DNA from: Escherichia coli
Lineage (GTDB): Bacteria; Pseudomonadota; Gammaproteobacteria; Enterobacterales; Enterobacteriaceae
Length of the DNA stretch: 64,000 nt
Direction: 5' to 3' (one strand)
Assembly (NCBI RefSeq): GCF_048403405.1
Contig: NZ_CP183129.1
The notes under the pieces are model-generated. The model searched no databases and was not told where the DNA came from. It was given only the letters and a program-made list of their open reading frames with translations. Position numbers and translations under genes: made by a program. Shown here one piece after another: positions 1,612 to 41,976 of the stretch (the first letter of the stretch is position 1; each line of letters opens with the position of its first letter).

Positions 1612-1909
1612 AAAAACTCCTTAATACTGATAACCTGGTGCACCATACACACGTTCCTGGAGAAAACTACTTTTTTGATAGGGTTGAAGGTGGCTGGATG
1701 TCTAAAATAAACATTGCTTCATATGTTCAACTATGAGTTAATGACTGCGTCGGTTTGAAGAACAGACGATATACGAAGTAGTTTACTAAAGCAGTTCTCA
1801 TTTCAGGTGTTATTCACTTATTCCTTCTTTGAGTCTCTCCAATTAAGTACGAAGTCGTTTCTGTTATGCAAACCATTTATGCCGAAAGGCTCAAGTTAAG
1901 GAATGTAGA

Positions 1910-2125
1910 ATGTCAAATAAAATGACTGGTTTAGTAAAATGGTTTAACGCTGATAAAGGTTTCGGCTTTATTTCTCCTGTTGATGGTAGTAAAGATGTGT
2001 TTGTGCATTTTTCTGCGATTCAGAATGATAATTATCGAACCTTATTTGAAGGTCAAAAGGTTACCTTCTCTATAGAGAGTGGTGCTAAAGGTCCTGCAGC
2101 AGCAAATGTCATCATTACTGATTAA
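1910..2125 (+). CDS. cspB: cold-shock protein, CspB-like
   Basis: 71 aa, [38 protein letters not shown]... with RNP motifs; long AT-rich 5-prime UTR; terminator downstream. Confidence 0.85.
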
Positions 2126-2405
2126 AATTCATCGCTCGTCTGTATACGATAACGAAGAAGGCTGATGCCTGAGTAGAGATACGGACAGAGTAGTGAATAT
2201 TGGATCTCTTTAATAAAAAGTAAGGAGGTCCAATACATGAAACAATGGCCAGCATATTTGGCAAAATCTTAATCAGGAAAAGTATGCTAACCATTGTGGT
2301 GAAGTGCAGGTTTGCTGCATGAATAGTTTCACAGCAGAAGCTAACTGCTGGCATCGCAAAACAAAGTGCGTAAGTGGATGACTCCCACAAAAAGCACCAC
2401 AATCT

Positions 2406-2488: not shown

Positions 2489-2660
2489 TCAGGCTACAGC
2501 TTTAAGATTTGTCTGGAATACTTTGTTGCAATGAGGGCAGATCAAAAGGGCACCTTTTTGTACTCTTGAAAAACTGTGTTCTGACTCTTGGGTGCAGTTT
2601 GGGCAGGAACATTTAACGAGATAATTACGGCGTGATTTTGAGTCTTTACGTTCTGACATA
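2489..2660 (-). CDS. small zinc-ribbon protein (56 aa), probably the YnfU equivalent
   Basis: MSERKDSKSRRNYLVKCSCPNCTQESEHSFSRVQKGALLICPHCNKVF...; two CxxC pairs; AGGA about 8 nt upstream of the ATG. Confidence 0.5.
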
Positions 2661-2878
2661 GGCTTTTCCTGTATAAATGGCCGTATACAGTACACTAAAT
2701 ATGAAAACATTTCTCGTATTATTATTTTATATGTGACTTTCTTTCAAAATAATTACCCACATTTTTAATGTGTATGTTTTTTTAGCGCCGTTGAGAACAA
2801 CGTGTGCTGTCAAAACTACCCCGTAGACTCCGATCTTTTCAAACATATTGCACCATCCGTGTACATCGGGGTGAGGAT

Positions 2879-3094
2879 ATGAAATCAATGGATAAGTTAA
2901 CAACAGGTGTTGCCTATGGCACATCGGCGGGTAATGCTGGTTTCTGGGCATTGCAGTTACTCGATAAAGTAACTCCGTCACAGTGGGCTGCAATCGGTGT
3001 GCTGGGTAGCCTGGTTTTTGGCCTGCTGACGTATCTGACAAATCTTTATTTCAAGATTAAAGAAGACAGGCGTAAGGCTGCGAGAGGAGAGTAA
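2879..3094 (+). CDS. essQ: phage 21 S-type holin (pinholin) with dual-start motif
   Basis: 71 aa, [26 protein letters not shown]...[15 protein letters not shown], matches recalled S21; Met1 and Met4 give the holin/antiholin start pair. Confidence 0.85.
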
Positions 3095-3098
3095 TCCA

Positions 3099-3650
3099 AT
3101 GACTCAAGACTATGAACTGGTTGTGAAAGGAGTCCGTAATTTTGAGAATAAAGTTACGGTAACTGTAGCCTTACGGGACAAAAAACACTTTGACGGTGAA
3201 ATTTTTGACCTGGACATCTCGCTGGACCGTGTTGAAGGTGCCGCGCTGGAGTTTTATGAGGCAGCAGCCAGAAGGAGCATCAGACAGGTCTTCCTGGATG
3301 TTGCTGCCGGGTTATGTGAAGGGGATGAGCAGTCGCCGGAAAAGCGCCCCATAATTTTAGAGGCGCAGAATGTGTGGATAACCTACAAAGGAAAGCTACC
3401 GGGAAGAATTACTGGTTCTCTGAAGACGCCACCGACGGCATTGCGGTCAGAAAAAGATGATATTGAATCGCCCATTGAAAAACTGGAGGGCAGCGTCGCT
3501 GATCTGAATAAAAAATTGTCGGTGCTGATTCCTTCTGAAGATGAAAAAAAACGCCGCGATGAGCAGTTTGCGGCGTTTTACGATTATTGCATTGAAGTTA
3601 CTCGCAGGAATTTTGTGAAGATTTTTGAGGAGGGTAAATCTCTTCAGTAA
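3099..3650 (+). CDS. YdfR-like protein with divergent, extended C-terminus (183 aa)
   Basis: N-terminal ~75 aa match recalled K-12 YdfR (MTQDYELVVKGVRNFENKVTVTVAL...); remainder differs and is longer than the 103-aa K-12 protein; lies between holin and endolysin. Confidence 0.55.
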   Translation: MTQDYELVVKGVRNFENKVTVTVALRDKKHFDGEIFDLDISLDRVEGAALEFYEAAARRSIRQVFLDVAAGLCEGDEQSPEKRPIILEAQNVWITYKGKLPGRITGSLKTPPTALRSEKDDIESPIEKLEGSVADLNKKLSVLIPSEDEKKRRDEQFAAFYDYCIEVTRRNFVKIFEEGKSLQ

Positions 3651-3858
3651 GCTTATTGGCGGACGCTGCAATTAATTCAGGAAGGTCCGCAAGGTCATCT
3701 GTCAGTGGATATGATGAAAAATCGGCGGCAGTTCTGTTAAGAAGCGCTTTAACTAATTCCTTTTCCTTCTCCGGCAACAAGTTGATTAGAGCTACGACTG
3801 CTTGCCTGAGTGCGATTAAATCAGCAAAAGTTTGTTTAGGTAGATTTGTGTAATCCAT
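3598..3858 (-). CDS. hypothetical acidic 86-aa protein, convergent with and overlapping the 3-prime end of the YdfR-like ORF
   Basis: ATG with AGAGG about 7 nt upstream; predicted helical, acidic; no recognised family. Confidence 0.35.
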   Translation of the reverse strand: MDYTNLPKQTFADLIALRQAVVALINLLPEKEKELVKALLNRTAADFSSYPLTDDLADLPELIAASANKLTEEIYPPQKSSQNSCE

Positions 3859-3971
3859 AGTCGCCTCTGTGTTTATCAGATTGACATCCTCCTCCCGCCA
3901 GTGCCCATCACTGGTGAGGTAAGATTTAACATATCCGGGGATTTGAAGCCGATAAATCCTGATAAATATCC

Positions 3972-4999
<1,028 letters not shown>

Positions 5000-5362
5000 A
5001 TTAATATTAAATCGGATTATTTTTAGCGCTGAATGTGAAATTTAAATAAAAAGGACTCTTCCATGAGTCAAAATCCTTGAAATCTTAAGGGTAAGATAAA
5101 AGGTCATTAGACAGAATGACACGTTTTATTAATAAATAAAGCTATTGTTTCATTCGTGTGTTTTTCTTTACAAAAGTAATCCTTGCTATGGTTGGTTAAT
5201 CATGCGTTAATGGTGTTCTGGTTTGTTACAAAATTATCTGAAGCAGTCATTGTTATAATTTTATTATTTGTACCTCTTGAGATTTCCTTGTTGGTTTTTC
5301 TCTCTGATATTTTTTTTCGGACCATTCTGCCCAAGGGCTAACTTCTTCAAAAGGTAATAATG

Positions 5363-5575
5363 ATGTCTAACAAAATGACTGGTTTAGTGAAATGGTTTAA
5401 CCCTGAAAAAGGTTTTGGTTTCATCACGCCGAAAGATGGTAGCAAAGATGTGTTTGTCCATTTCTCAGCTATTCAGAGCAACGATTTCAAAACGTTAACT
5501 GAGAATCAGGAAGTCGAATTTGGTATTGAGAACGGACCTAAAGGCCCCGCGGCTGTTCATGTTGTGGCACTTTGA
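5363..5575 (+). CDS. cspI: cold-shock protein, CspI-like
   Basis: 70 aa, [43 protein letters not shown]...; long AT-rich leader. Confidence 0.85.
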
Positions 5576-5775
5576 GGTAGATAATATTACAAACCATATT
5601 CACTTTAGATGCCCGTGTTGCCATGGTTCTCAGTATAGAACATCATCTTTTGATGTTTCTGACAGGAATCCTTTCGGGGCAAAATGTATCTTTTGTAAAT
5701 CAATGATGATTACATTTGATAATATTTCACAATACTTAAATGTTAGCCGTCTATCGTTAGATTTAAGAAAGTGAA

Positions 5776-40771: not shown

Positions 40772-41683
40772 ATGATCAAGAAGACAACGGAAATTGATGC
40801 CATCTTGTTAAATCTCAATAAGGCTATCGATGCCCACTACCAGTGGCTGGTAAGTATGTTTCACAGCGTGGTCGCGAGAGATGCCAGTAAGCCAGAAATA
40901 ACGGATAACCATTCTTATGGACTGTGCCAGTTTGGTCGGTGGATTGATCATCTGGGGCCACTCGATAACGATGAATTACCTTATGTTCGGCTAATGGATT
41001 CTGCCCATCAACATATGCATAACTGTGGTCGGGAATTAATGTTGGCTATTGTTGAAAATCACTGGCAGGACGCGCATTTCGACGCCTTTCAGGAAGGGTT
41101 GCTTTCTTTTACTGCGGCATTAACCGATTACAAAATTTATTTGCTGACGATCCGTAGCAATATGGATGTTTTGACGGGATTGCCGGGTCGTCGGGTTCTT
41201 GATGAATCCTTTGATCATCAGTTACGCAACGCTGAGCCTCTGAATCTTTATTTAATGTTGTTGGATATTGACCGATTTAAATTGGTTAATGATACCTACG
41301 GGCATTTAATCGGCGATGTAGTATTACGCACCCTGGCAACTTACTTAGCCAGTTGGACGCGCGATTACGAAACGGTTTATCGCTACGGTGGCGAAGAATT
41401 TATCATTATTGTCAAAGCGGCTAATGATGAAGAAGCATGTCGTGCAGGTATCAGAATTTGCCAGTTAGTCGATAACCATGCCATCACACATTCTGAAGGG
41501 CATATCAACATTACCGTGACAGCAGGTGTCAGTCGCGCATTTCCTGAAGAGCCTCTGGATGTGGTCATTGGAAGAGCAGACCGGGCAATGTATGAGGGTA
41601 AGCAAACCGGAAGAAATCGCTGCATGTTTATTGACGAACAAAATGTGATTAACCGAGTTTCAGCTCCGTTTAACATTCATTGA
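40772..41683 (+). CDS. dgcZ: zinc-sensing diguanylate cyclase
   Basis: MIKKTTEIDAILLNLNKA...; GGEEF motif (RYGGEEF); start codon choice uncertain by a few codons. Confidence 0.85.
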   Translation: MIKKTTEIDAILLNLNKAIDAHYQWLVSMFHSVVARDASKPEITDNHSYGLCQFGRWIDHLGPLDNDELPYVRLMDSAHQHMHNCGRELMLAIVENHWQDAHFDAFQEGLLSFTAALTDYKIYLLTIRSNMDVLTGLPGRRVLDESFDHQLRNAEPLNLYLMLLDIDRFKLVNDTYGHLIGDVVLRTLATYLASWTRDYETVYRYGGEEFIIIVKAANDEEACRAGIRICQLVDNHAITHSEGHINITVTAGVSRAFPEEPLDVVIGRADRAMYEGKQTGRNRCMFIDEQNVINRVSAPFNIH

Positions 41684-41777
41684 GAAAACTGATGCTACTG
41701 TGTCAACGATCCGTTATCAGTGCAGGAAAATGCCTGTTAGCGTAAAAGCAAAACACAAATCTATCCATGCAAGCATT

Positions 41778-41806
41778 CACCGCCGGTTTACTGGCGGTTT
41801 TTTTTC
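41778..41806 (+). terminator. strong rho-independent terminator about 95 nt downstream of dgcZ
   Basis: ccgccggtttactggcgg followed by eight T. Confidence 0.55.
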
Positions 41807-41880
41807 GCCGTCATAAAAATCAGGCCCCTTGTACACAACTGTAACAAGGGGCCGGTTAGGTGAGGGATTATCTCCGTTCA

Positions 41881-41976
41881 TTAGTCATCCCATTTGTGGC
41901 TGAAATACGCGGCCAGAAAACCAGAAAATAAAATTATTCCCAGTACGGCCATAAAAACATTCATATTACCCAGCAT
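41881..41976 (-). CDS. mgtS: 31-aa membrane protein MgtS (YneM)
   Basis: Minus-strand translation MLGNMNVFMAVLGIILFSGFLAAYFSHKWDD; minus-strand hairpin plus U-tract just downstream. Confidence 0.8.
   Translation of the reverse strand: MLGNMNVFMAVLGIILFSGFLAAYFSHKWDD

What the first reader, a model, noticed from the sequence alone, without database searches (positions are those of the whole stretch)
3099..3858. Variable insert inside the lysis cassette between holin and endolysin
Phage 21-type cassettes are normally S-R-Rz/Rz1 with little between S and R. Here the YdfR-like ORF shares only its N-terminal ~75 aa with recalled K-12 YdfR and extends to 183 aa with a different C-terminus, and a convergent 86-aa acidic ORF with a good RBS overlaps its 3-prime end. 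The spot may hold a lysis modulator or another small moron.
Basis: partly seen in the sequence, partly recalled or inferred. Interest (0 to 1): 0.5.

Follow-up and report, generated by a model that had tools for sequence, protein, structure and literature searches.

The report
Convergent accessory gene pair in lysis cassette
Between the hole-forming and wall-degrading lysis genes of this E. coli prophage lie two real but uncharacterised genes, a YdfR-family late protein whose conserved head probably binds RNase E and a backward-facing small acidic-protein gene with its own terminator; the two travel together as a unit in other phages, but nothing shows that they control lysis.

Summary
ORF 3099-3650 (+, 183 aa) and ORF 3598-3858 (-, 86 aa, pI 4.6, GAGG 5 nt before the ATG) lie between an S21-type pinholin gene and a SAR-endolysin gene and overlap by 53 nt.

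The 183-aa protein is a Pfam DUF1327/YdfR protein. Its first 74 aa are 85% identical to K-12 YdfR, the part reported in 2026 to bind the RNase E catalytic half. Residues ~115-183 form a separate helical module.

The 86-aa ORF is a real gene. Relatives at 38-55% identity exist in Salmonella-type and other lambdoid phages. It is the only frame open in all clades.

In 53 of 57 viral loci it converges on a partner ORF with a 53- or 59-nt 3' overlap, and that partner carries the same helical module. In one clade the partner is a free-standing 73-aa gene after Rz.

A conserved hairpin, followed by U8 in this window, sits 18 nt past the stop, inside the partner's codons. It looks like the gene's own terminator.

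An ORF between S and R is the rule in E. coli: the insert query (mostly its DUF1327 part) matches 4276 of 5426 genomes. This pair is in 313.

Function is unknown, and there is no evidence for lysis control. I rate it a moron-like accessory module of moderate interest.

The parts
2879..3094 (+). essQ, an S21-type class II holin (pinholin, 71 aa, MKSMDK dual-start motif). Upstream flank; not part of the insert.
   Evidence: ORF, taken from the internal ATG. (annotated essQ, class II holin, in CFT073 and KK19-02). PF04971 on homologues.
3099..3650 (+). 183-aa YdfR-family ORF. It starts 4 nt after the holin stop, and GGAGAG lies inside the holin's last codons.
   Evidence: phrog_2091 matched full length, E 5.8e-112. 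The ORF is intact in CFT073, PhiR63_1 and L010, although PGAP labels it a pseudogene.
3099..3434 (+). DUF1327 domain (aa 1-112). The family-wide conserved core is aa 1-~72 (3099-3314), predicted beta-beta-beta-alpha.
   Evidence: Pfam PF07041, E 7.8e-43, aa 1-112. 85% identity to K-12 YdfR over aa 1-74. AF2 gives E5-14, E18-27, E34-43, H50-73 with block pLDDT 59-83. K-12 YdfR 1-72 binds the RNase E N-terminal half (PMC13232886). The whole-insert query, mostly through this part, matches 4276 of 5426 genomes.
3435..3650 (+). C-terminal helical module (aa 113-183), fused here to DUF1327. It is homologous to a free-standing 73-aa gene in Salmonella-type phages and to the C-terminus of a 243-aa DUF1327 protein.
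   Evidence: 25-33% identity between clades, shared KRRDE..AA..RN(F/L).K..KS.Q pattern. AF2 predicts helices 123-143 and 147-182 at low confidence. phrog_36381 and phrog_15975 hits on aa 121-176.
3598..3858 (-). 86-aa acidic protein gene (phrog_2572), convergent with the late operon. Predicted three-helix bundle.
   Evidence: phrog_2572 matched full length, E 4.4e-53. Relatives at 38-55% identity. It is the only frame with no stops in all clades, with the highest identity and the mildest substitutions. Third-position excess. pN/pS 0.31-0.63. 47 of 47 loci intact. AF2 pLDDT 71.4, helices H8-26, H30-48, H56-74.
3598..3650 (.). 53-nt 3' overlap of the two genes (the last 17 codons of each).
   Evidence: The overlap is 53 nt in every E. 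coli-clade locus and 59 nt in both remote clades. There is no substitution in the overlap between the window and L010 alleles.
3544..3579 (-). Hairpin plus U-run, read as an intrinsic terminator of the 86-aa gene. Stem 3579-3570 pairs with 3557-3548, the loop is 3569-3558, and the 8-A run at 3544-3551 on the + strand reads as U8 on the minus strand. It is written into the partner's codons KKRRDEQFAAF.
   Evidence: Read. RNAfold in seven loci of three clades. The 8-bp core is paired in 100% of cells, with one G-C to A-U compensatory pair in the L073 clade. The general scan missed it because its loop limit is 8 nt.
3859..3869 (-). Ribosome-binding region of the 86-aa gene (CAGAGGCGACT before the ATG; GAGG at 3867-3864).
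   Evidence: Read. The AAACA(G/C).(A/G)AGG motif before the start is kept in all three clades.
3928..3956 (-). Candidate weak sigma-70 promoter for the reverse gene: -35 TTTATC (3956-3951), 17-nt spacer, -10 TATGTT (3933-3928). This is inferred only.
   Evidence: The same arrangement lies upstream of the acidic gene in L010, PhiR5_1 and L073. L067 has TTTATC-17-TATTGT. It also lies upstream of the unrelated CP53 reverse ORF. It is absent in K-12, ST131, KKo003 and 100416, and present in O157 PA20, which has no reverse ORF. It falls below the threshold of the consensus scan.
3590..3927 (.). Extent of the cargo segment specific to this insert type, lying between sequence shared with other cassette types.
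   Evidence: blastn: similarity to the 296-aa long form ends at window ~3589. Similarity to other cassettes resumes at 3928.
3972..4505 (+). rrrQ, a lysozyme with a SAR-like N-terminal segment. Downstream flank; not part of the insert.
   Evidence: PF00959 on homologues. Hydrophobic N-terminus.

Best explanation
The S-R interval carries two genuine accessory genes that are not core lysis genes.

(1) 3099-3650 is a late-operon YdfR/DUF1327 gene. Its conserved N-terminal beta-beta-beta-alpha core (aa 1-~72) is the part that, in K-12 YdfR, binds the catalytic half of RNase E and co-purifies with RNA. I infer that the protein is made together with S and R, docks on RNase E, and alters RNA decay late in the cycle.

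(2) 3858-3598 is an autonomous, backward-facing small gene of the moron type. It has an SD, an 86-codon ORF for an acidic three-helix protein, and a hairpin+U8 terminator. The terminator and the last 17 codons are overprinted on the 3' end of the YdfR gene.

(3) The helical C-module of the 183-aa protein and the acidic gene form one conserved convergent unit. That unit exists fused to DUF1327 between S and R, or free-standing after Rz.

Inferred mode of action: the acidic gene is transcribed against the late operon from a weak promoter at the R-proximal boundary, so it does not depend on Q. It would be on in the lysogen or early in infection, and overridden when antiterminated late transcription sweeps through. 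Its product most likely acts on its partner's helical module as an antagonist or regulator.

Shown here: gene reality, domain limits, the pairing, the hairpin, and the distribution.
Inferred: RNase E binding by this allele, the promoter, the timing, and the protein-protein link.
For: Gene reality.

Domain limits and mosaicism.

Pairing: 53 of 57 viral loci have a partner ORF overlapping by 53 or 59 nt. The unit is seen in three clades and two genomic contexts. The partner modules are homologous. The free-standing 73-aa partner has its own AGAGG RBS and more synonymous change in its own frame than in the others (7:11 against 3:13-14).

Terminator.

Promoter-like element shared with an unrelated reverse cargo.

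Accessory status: 313 of 5426 genomes, lower G+C, and presence in isolated, annotated complete phage genomes.
Against: No consensus sigma-70 promoter was found. The candidate matches 7 of 12 positions and overlaps the R upstream region, so its conservation may serve R instead.

Hairpin covariation rests on one pair and one event (81 of 500 shuffles reach it). The stem also encodes a conserved peptide.

In the cited study, overexpressed K-12 YdfR changed few transcripts.

The helical module also occurs without the acidic gene, in 296-aa long forms.

One lineage (8 of 56 loci) has lost the ATG of the acidic gene, so the gene is dispensable.

The AF2 model of the C-module is low confidence. No interaction between the two proteins was or could be computed.

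There are no structural neighbours for the acidic protein.
Confidence: 0.45

Rival explanations
1. Lysis-timing modulator. One or both products act on the pinholin or the SAR endolysin, for example as an antiholin-like or endolysin-release regulator.
For: Every member of both families found here lies inside a lysis cassette. Helix 1 of the 86-aa protein is borderline hydrophobic (19-residue Kyte-Doolittle mean 1.62, against 1.72 for the pinholin TMD). The cited study mentions a screen that linked K-12 ydfR to envelope integrity.
Against: The 183-aa protein has no hydrophobic segment (maximum 0.69). Helix 1 of the 86-aa protein carries conserved D13, R18 and Q19 and is modelled inside a soluble three-helix bundle. 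The 86-aa gene is antisense to the late operon, so it is not co-expressed with S and R. The pair also sits after Rz/Rz1 in a cassette with a different (205-aa) endolysin, which I judge GH19-like from its sequence, untested. Only 313 of 5426 genomes carry the pair, and several cassette types lack it. No family hits to known lysis regulators.
Confidence: 0.12
2. RNA-level element. What is selected is an antisense transcript and/or a two-way terminator between S and R. It would limit leaky, non-antiterminated read-through into R, for example from the cold-shock gene cspB upstream. The 86-codon ORF would be secondary.
For: The hairpin stem is the best-conserved nucleotide element of the unit and keeps pairing through a compensatory change. 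The convergent 3' overlap is fixed at 53 or 59 nt. cspA-type leaders flank the cassette. The promoter-like element also occurs upstream of an unrelated reverse ORF and in an O157 cassette with no reverse ORF.
Against: Conservation at the protein level is clear. There are 23 invariant residues across clades at 41-50% identity, the frame is open in all clades, substitutions are milder than in any other frame, and there is an SD and an ATG or GTG start in every clade. On the + strand the hairpin lacks a U-run beyond the stem. The pair also occurs after Rz, where it cannot shield R.
Confidence: 0.15
3. Two unrelated hitch-hikers, or decaying remnants. The 183-aa ORF would be a long-form DUF1327 gene truncated by insertion of a moron. 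The pairing would reflect only physical overlap, and neither product would work with the other, or at all.
For: Similarity to the 296-aa long form stops 8 nt from the acidic gene's stop. PGAP calls the 183-aa ORF a C-terminally truncated pseudogene. K-12 ydfR is itself a truncated remnant. The L067-type unit carries a relic of the R-upstream sequence, which suggests transplantation of a fragment. One lineage has lost the start codon. pN/pS is only moderately below 1 (0.31-0.63).
Against: Both ORFs stay open in three clades down to 25-50% identity. The transplanted fragment acquired or kept its own start and RBS. All 47 loci that cover the acidic ORF fully have it intact. The arrangement is present in isolated, annotated complete phage genomes.
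Confidence: 0.25

Closest known systems
E. coli K-12 YdfR (P76160, Qin prophage) and Pfam DUF1327 (PF07041)
   Same: Same position between essQ and rrrQ. aa 1-74 are 85% identical. The Pfam match is E 7.8e-43. The shared part is the fragment shown to bind the RNase E N-terminal half and to co-purify with RNA (PMC13232886).
   Different: K-12 YdfR is 103 aa. Its tail is unrelated to this protein and is the truncated start of an L073-type 243-aa form. Its stop overlaps the rrrQ start, and there is no reverse gene. The window protein has a different aa 72-112 segment and a 70-aa helical module.
Morons of lambdoid phages, such as lambda bor and lom (concept of Hendrix and colleagues; from my own knowledge)
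   Same: An extra gene present in some but not all otherwise similar cassettes. It has its own SD and a factor-independent terminator, lower G+C than its neighbours, and lies within the late region.
   Different: Its terminator and 3' end are overprinted on the preceding late gene. It always travels with that gene's C-module. The promoter is unverified. The product has no recognisable family or fold neighbour.
Phage-encoded RNase E modulators: T4 Srd, phiKZ Dip, T7 gp0.7 (PMC4980113)
   Same: A phage or prophage protein that contacts RNase E. Srd, like YdfR, binds the catalytic N-terminal half.
   Different: There is no sequence relation (the PDB sequence search found nothing). YdfR is encoded in the late lysis cassette. 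An effect on RNase E activity has not been shown, and overexpression changed few transcripts.
Lysis regulators encoded in lysis cassettes (S21-71 antiholin, T4 RI, P1 LydB; from my own knowledge)
   Same: Location inside a lysis cassette.
   Different: The 183-aa protein has no membrane or periplasmic targeting signal, and the 86-aa protein has only a borderline hydrophobic helix. The 86-aa gene is on the opposite strand. The pair is absent from most cassettes.
CP53-type reverse 90-aa ORF (phrog_2411) in the same slot
   Same: Same slot and orientation, a similar size and acidity (pI 4.3), overlap with the 3' end of the DUF1327 gene, and the same TTTATC-17-TATGTT element upstream. It is found in at least 1051 genomes.
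   Different: No detectable homology (BLASTP found nothing; hhalign probability 0.5%). Its DUF1327 partner is the short 114-aa form, which lacks the helical module.

Membership tests
Pfam DUF1327 / YdfR family | Significant match to the PF07041 profile | tested here: met
   E 7.8e-43, aa 1-112 against model positions 1-92 of 93. phrog_2091, phrog_406 and phrog_2735 also match.
Pfam DUF1327 / YdfR family | Encoded directly after a class II holin and before the endolysin of a lambdoid cassette | tested here: met
Pfam DUF1327 / YdfR family | The N-terminal ~72 aa bind the RNase E catalytic half (shown for K-12 YdfR only) | not testable with these tools
   85% identity over aa 1-74. Experimental data for K-12 are in PMC13232886.
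Moron (autonomous extra gene in a phage operon) | Present in some and absent from other closely related cassettes at the same position | tested here: met
   The insert query (mostly its DUF1327 part) matches 4276 genomes and the 86-aa segment 313. Alternative layouts.
Moron (autonomous extra gene in a phage operon) | Own factor-independent terminator | tested here: met
   A 10-bp G+C-rich stem followed by U8, 18 nt after the stop. The hairpin core is conserved in three clades with one compensatory pair. This is in silico only.
Moron (autonomous extra gene in a phage operon) | Own promoter | tested here: inconclusive
   No consensus hit. The conserved weak candidate is TTTATC-17-TATGTT.
Moron (autonomous extra gene in a phage operon) | Base composition differs from the neighbours | tested here: met
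   G+C is 0.414 for the ORF, against 0.463-0.519 for essQ, the DUF1327 domain, rrrQ and rzpQ. The difference is modest.
Moron (autonomous extra gene in a phage operon) | Expressed from the repressed prophage | not testable with these tools
   No transcript data were found.
Antiholin / lysis-inhibition proteins | Transmembrane or periplasmic segment allowing contact with the holin | tested here: inconclusive
   183 aa: maximum hydropathy 0.69, so none. 86 aa: helix 1 scores 1.62, which is borderline, but it contains conserved D, R and Q and is modelled in a soluble bundle.
Antiholin / lysis-inhibition proteins | Co-transcription with the holin and endolysin | tested here: not met
   This applies to the 86-aa gene, which lies on the opposite strand. 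The 183-aa gene is co-directional.
Pfam DUF1823 (the label given to the 86-aa homologue in the PhiR5_1 record) | Significant match to the PF08853 profile | tested here: not met
   E 0.18, covering 39 residues only.
Known anti-phage defence or toxin-antitoxin components | Match to PADLOC or NCBIfam models | tested here: not met
   No hits for either protein or for their remote relatives.
Phage RNase E modulators (Dip, Srd) | Sequence or fold relationship to Dip or Srd | tested here: not met

The most novel reading that the evidence does not exclude
The helical module and the acidic three-helix protein are a previously unrecognised two-component switch. The prophage-made acidic protein holds in check a late, RNase E-docking effector, and late transcription silences the acidic gene through convergent transcription and the 3' overlap. 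Prophage state would then be coupled to host RNA decay. Alternatively, the pair could be a new prophage defence or counter-defence module.
Probability: 0.15. Interest if true: 0.7.

Novelty: new member of a known kind. Interest (0 to 1): 0.4.

Why it matters
DUF1327/YdfR genes sit in the lysis cassettes of prophages in about four of every five complete E. coli genomes, yet they have no assigned role. The only functional lead is the 2026 report that the K-12 protein binds RNase E.

This locus shows that the family is modular: a conserved RNase E-binding head plus exchangeable tails. One tail belongs to a conserved convergent pair with a small acidic protein gene that carries its own terminator.

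That gives concrete, cheap experiments in the isolated phages 2H10 and PhiR63_1 and in CFT073. The questions are what a late RNase E-binding protein does, and whether the S-R slot is a general landing site for backward-facing cargo. At least two unrelated cargo families use it, and together they are in roughly a quarter of E. coli genomes.

It also corrects an annotation error, because an intact ORF is being labelled a pseudogene.

If the pair is only a passenger, the finding is ordinary prophage mosaicism.

Tried and rejected
- dN/dS alone could not tell the 86-aa ORF from the + strand 65-aa ORF (3656-3853), because the two frames share wobble positions. Stop-codon counts, identity and substitution quality across clades settled it in favour of the 86-aa frame.
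- DUF1823 membership was rejected (E 0.18).
- Homology between the 86-aa protein and the CP53-type 90-aa reverse ORF was rejected.
- A 975-aa repeat protein (P0141) hit by phmmer was dismissed as a repeat-helix artefact.
- PADLOC, NCBIfam and Pfam gave nothing for the partners, the long forms or the 210-aa reverse ORF of L078.
- The leader palindrome at 3898-3914 was considered as a conserved RNA structure. It folds better than shuffles in the window (z -2.2), but the flanking stem is not kept in other alleles and the L067 leader is not significant (z -0.5). It was dropped.
- I tested the idea that the terminator hairpin is absent wherever the acidic gene is absent. L078 keeps the same peptide with only one synonymous stem-breaking change, which is too weak to use.
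- Rfam found nothing within 2600-4600.
- Literature searches for protein accessions, PHROG ids and DUF1327 found no study of this pair.
Full report
WHAT IS THERE

The window carries a nearly full-length prophage at the Qin locus. A 99.5%-identical genome (KK19-02) shows the order dicB ... ydfT (antiterminator), cspF, cspB, ynfU, essQ, a "YdfR family" gene, a hypothetical gene, rrrQ, rzpQ, cspI ... terminase, head and tail genes, pinQ, ydfK, then ydfJ.

In the window, essQ (2879-3094) encodes a 71-aa S21-type pinholin. rrrQ (3972-4505) encodes a lysozyme with a SAR-like N-terminus. rzpQ follows at 4502-4999.

They are 3099..3650 + (183 aa) and 3598..3858 - (86 aa), and they overlap by 53 nt. 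The stated properties hold:
- BLASTP aligns only aa 1-74 to K-12 YdfR, at 85% identity.
- The 86-aa product has pI 4.57.
- GAGG lies 5 nt before its ATG.

HOW COMMON IS IT

The premise that S21-type cassettes have little between S and R does not hold for E. coli prophages. The S..R block matches 10,699 places in 4596 of 5426 complete genomes. The insert query, mostly through its DUF1327 part, matches 8,426 places in 4276 genomes.

The layout varies, and DNA matches to the insert stop at about nt 200, 252, 337 and 449. The layouts seen were:
- K-12 ydfR: 103 aa, with its stop overlapping the rrrQ start.
- Short forms of 104-116 aa (ST131, O157, strain 100416).
- A 114-aa form plus an unrelated backward 90-aa ORF (CP53 type).
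- 183-aa or 211-aa forms plus the 86-aa ORF (this window, CFT073, PhiR5_1).
- A 296-aa long form with no reverse ORF (KKo003).

The segment specific to this type (3651-3927) is in 313 genomes, always chromosomal. The CP53-type segment is in at least 1051 genomes.

The exact arrangement also occurs in the isolated phages PhiR63_1 and 2H10, and a 211-aa variant occurs in PhiR5_1 and the PhiR12 phages. PGAP labels the intact 183-aa ORF "pseudo, missing C-terminus" in CFT073 and KK19-02. The ORF is uninterrupted there, so this looks like an annotation artefact of comparing it with longer family members.

THE 183-AA PROTEIN IS MODULAR

Pfam places DUF1327 on aa 1-112 (E 7.8e-43). A 27-sequence family alignment shows that the invariant columns lie within aa 5-69. 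After about aa 72 two alternative continuations exist, the K-12/L073 type and the window type. Tails diverge after "GSLKTPP" at aa 112.

The one functional study I found is Gopel et al., RNA Biol 2026 (PMC13232886). It isolated YdfR codons 1-72 in a two-hybrid screen and reported an interaction with the RNase E N-terminal half. It confirmed the interaction by co-purification of Rne(1-598) with Strep-YdfR. It also found RNA co-purifying with YdfR, and few transcriptome changes on overexpression. The fragment used there is the conserved core shared by the window protein.

THE 86-AA ORF IS A REAL GENE

Close relatives are confined to Escherichia. An exhaustive phmmer search and a profile search then found 89-93-aa relatives at 38-55% identity, some of them from Salmonella enterica. 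Twelve sequences align with 23 invariant residues in a helical pattern.

Within the E. coli clade, pN/pS is 0.31-0.63. The + strand 65-aa ORF (3656-3853) shares wobble positions and scores similarly. I therefore compared all six frames across clades. The 86-aa frame is the only one without stops. It has the highest identity (41-52%) and the mildest substitutions (mean BLOSUM62 of mismatches -0.53 to +0.02, against -0.60 to -1.42 for the shadow frame, which has 3-5 stop-containing columns). Third positions change most (for example 29/24/41 for window against L016).

All 47 related loci that cover the ORF fully have it intact, in 14 nucleotide alleles. One lineage (8 of 56 loci, the one with a 176-aa partner) has ATG changed to ACG. 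The gene is therefore dispensable.

AlphaFold2 gives a three-helix bundle with pLDDT 71.4. Foldseek found no neighbour in the PDB or in the BFVD library of predicted viral protein structures. Pfam DUF1823, the label used in one phage record, is not supported (E 0.18).

A CONSERVED CONVERGENT PAIR

In 53 of 57 IMG/VR loci that encode a relative, the acidic ORF converges on a partner ORF. The 3' overlap is 53 nt in the E. coli clade and 59 nt in both remote clades.

In L073 and L019 the layout is: an S21-type pinholin; a 243-aa DUF1327 protein whose middle is the K-12-type tail; the convergent 93-aa (L073) or 89-aa (L019) gene; then a SAR lysozyme. This shows that K-12 ydfR is a truncated remnant of that form.

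In L067 and L016-L018 the layout is: endolysin; Rz(DUF2514)/Rz1; a free-standing 73-aa gene; the convergent 93-aa gene; then a gap of about 415 nt, the DUF1441 small terminase and TerL.

The 73-aa protein and the C-termini of the 183-aa and 243-aa proteins are homologous (25-33% identity, shared pattern KRRDE..AA..RN(F/L).K..KS.Q). The 73-aa gene has its own AGAGG RBS. It has more synonymous change in its own frame than in the others (7:11 against 3:13-14).

That unit is either fused to DUF1327 or free-standing. Similarity of the window to the 296-aa long form ends at about 3589, 8 nt from the acidic gene's stop. Similarity to all cassette types resumes at 3928. The helical module also occurs in the long forms without the acidic gene.

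TRANSCRIPTION SIGNALS

Eighteen nucleotides past the acidic gene's stop, on its strand, lies AAAACGCCGC-(12 nt)-GCGGCGUUUU followed by four more U (window + coordinates 3579-3544). The general scan missed it because its loop limit is 8 nt.

A hairpin with the same 8-bp core lies at the same place in all three clades. Every cell is paired. The L073 clade has one G-C to A-U compensatory pair, while the encoded peptide changes from RRDEQFAA to RHHENGVA. The statistical support is thin, because there is one covarying pair and 81 of 500 shuffles reach it. The U-run is strong only in the window clade. I read this as the gene's intrinsic terminator, written into the partner's codons.

No consensus sigma-70 promoter precedes the gene. 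A weak candidate, TTTATC-17 nt-TATGTT (3956-3928, minus strand), is kept upstream of the acidic gene in four lineages. It is also found upstream of the unrelated CP53 reverse ORF. It is missing in four of five cassettes without reverse cargo. It overlaps the R upstream region, so its conservation is ambiguous.

G+C of the acidic ORF is 0.414, against 0.463-0.519 for its neighbours.

INTERPRETATION

Shown here:
- Both ORFs are real genes.
- The 183-aa protein is DUF1327 plus a separable helical module.
- The helical module and the acidic gene form a conserved convergent unit with an embedded hairpin.
- The S-R slot accepts at least two unrelated backward-facing small acidic ORFs.

Inferred:
- The N-domain binds RNase E, as in K-12.
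- The acidic gene is transcribed independently of Q and is opposed by late transcription.
- The two products act on each other.

I put 0.45 on this composite.

Rivals:
- Hitch-hikers or remnants with no joint function: 0.25.
- An RNA-level role, as an antisense RNA or a two-way terminator: 0.15.
It is kept alive only by the location and by a borderline hydrophobic helix 1 (1.62).

Known analogues are morons such as bor (from my own knowledge) and phage RNase E modulators such as T4 Srd, which also binds the catalytic half (PMC4980113). No homology to any of these was found.

VERDICT

This is a real, conserved but uncharacterised accessory module, and I found no published description of the pair. 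Interest is moderate at 0.4. It is a new member of the moron/accessory-gene kind, attached to a very widespread family for which an RNase E link has only just appeared.

Noticed in passing
window 3656-3853 (+): A 65-aa ORF lies antisense to the 86-aa gene. It starts with TTG here and with ATG in CFT073, L010 and PhiR5_1. It shares wobble positions with the 86-aa frame and so mimics purifying selection. Comparable antisense ORFs are also open in L067 and L073.
   Followed up: yes
L001 3300-3635 (CFT073); L077 11828-12163 (KK19-02): PGAP annotates the intact 183-codon YdfR-family ORF as a pseudogene, 'missing C-terminus'. The frame is uninterrupted to the same stop as in the window.
   Followed up: yes
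L005 1811-2083 (CP53), the equivalent slot: An unrelated backward 90-aa acidic ORF (phrog_2411, pI 4.3) occupies the same S-R slot in at least 1051 E. coli genomes. It overlaps the short YdfR gene by 35 nt and sits behind the same TTTATC-17-TATGTT element.
   Followed up: partly
L078 959-1591 (-): In another S-R variant a 210-aa backward ORF overlaps the last 252 nt of a 305-aa DUF1327 ORF. It has no Pfam, PHROG or PADLOC match. It is unclear which strand is the coding one.
   Followed up: partly
L004 1501-1812 (K-12 ydfR) against L073 4224-4955: The K-12 YdfR tail (EKLSEKVESYLQHQYSFKIEN...) matches the middle of a 243-aa DUF1327 protein that ends in the helical module and faces a 93-aa acidic gene. 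K-12 ydfR therefore looks like a deletion remnant of that form.
   Followed up: yes
L036-L042, L065: In the lineage with a 176-aa partner (many Shigella records) the acidic gene's start codon is ACG instead of ATG. The rest of the ORF is intact, except in L065, which is frameshifted.
   Followed up: yes
window 3898-3914: The palindrome CCAGTG-N5-CACTGG lies in the putative leader of the 86-aa gene. An extended hairpin pairs a GGGAGGAGG run with CCUC (z -2.2). The inner stem is kept in L010 and PhiR5_1 and is partly similar in L067, but the outer stem is not kept.
   Followed up: partly
window 1749-2141 and 5205-5621 (+): Two Rfam cspA-thermoregulator leaders (for cspB and cspI) bracket the lysis cassette. 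Cold-induced transcription could therefore read into, or end next to, the lysis genes.
   Followed up: no
window 41674-41887 (+): A full-length Rfam match to the Hfq-binding sRNA STnc560 (282 bits).
   Followed up: no
window 4653-4949 (+): A 98-aa ORF is embedded in rzpQ in another frame and contains a lipobox-like LTSC. It is probably the Rz1-type outer-membrane spanin and is not annotated in the reference records shown.
   Followed up: no
L067 3860-3880 and L016, upstream of the 93-aa gene: The Salmonella-type unit, although placed after Rz and far from any endolysin start, keeps a relic of the R-upstream sequence (ATATTTATCAGGCTTTATC). This suggests that the unit was transplanted from an S-R interval.
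   Followed up: partly
window 3829-3775 (helix 1 of the 86-aa protein): Residues 10-28 reach a 19-residue Kyte-Doolittle mean of 1.62, close to the pinholin TMD value of 1.72, despite conserved D13, R18 and Q19. Membrane association is not excluded.
   Followed up: partly
L077 4560-6197 (KK19-02, just upstream of the window's start): The same prophage carries an annotated anti-phage dCTP deaminase between the replication genes and hokD.
   Followed up: no
K-12 ydfR region (literature): In an in vitro sigma-S run-off/microarray study, a probe annotated as CFT073 c1434 (ydfR) was among the sigma-S-preferred signals, with a ratio of 3.45 (PMC3141248).
   Followed up: no
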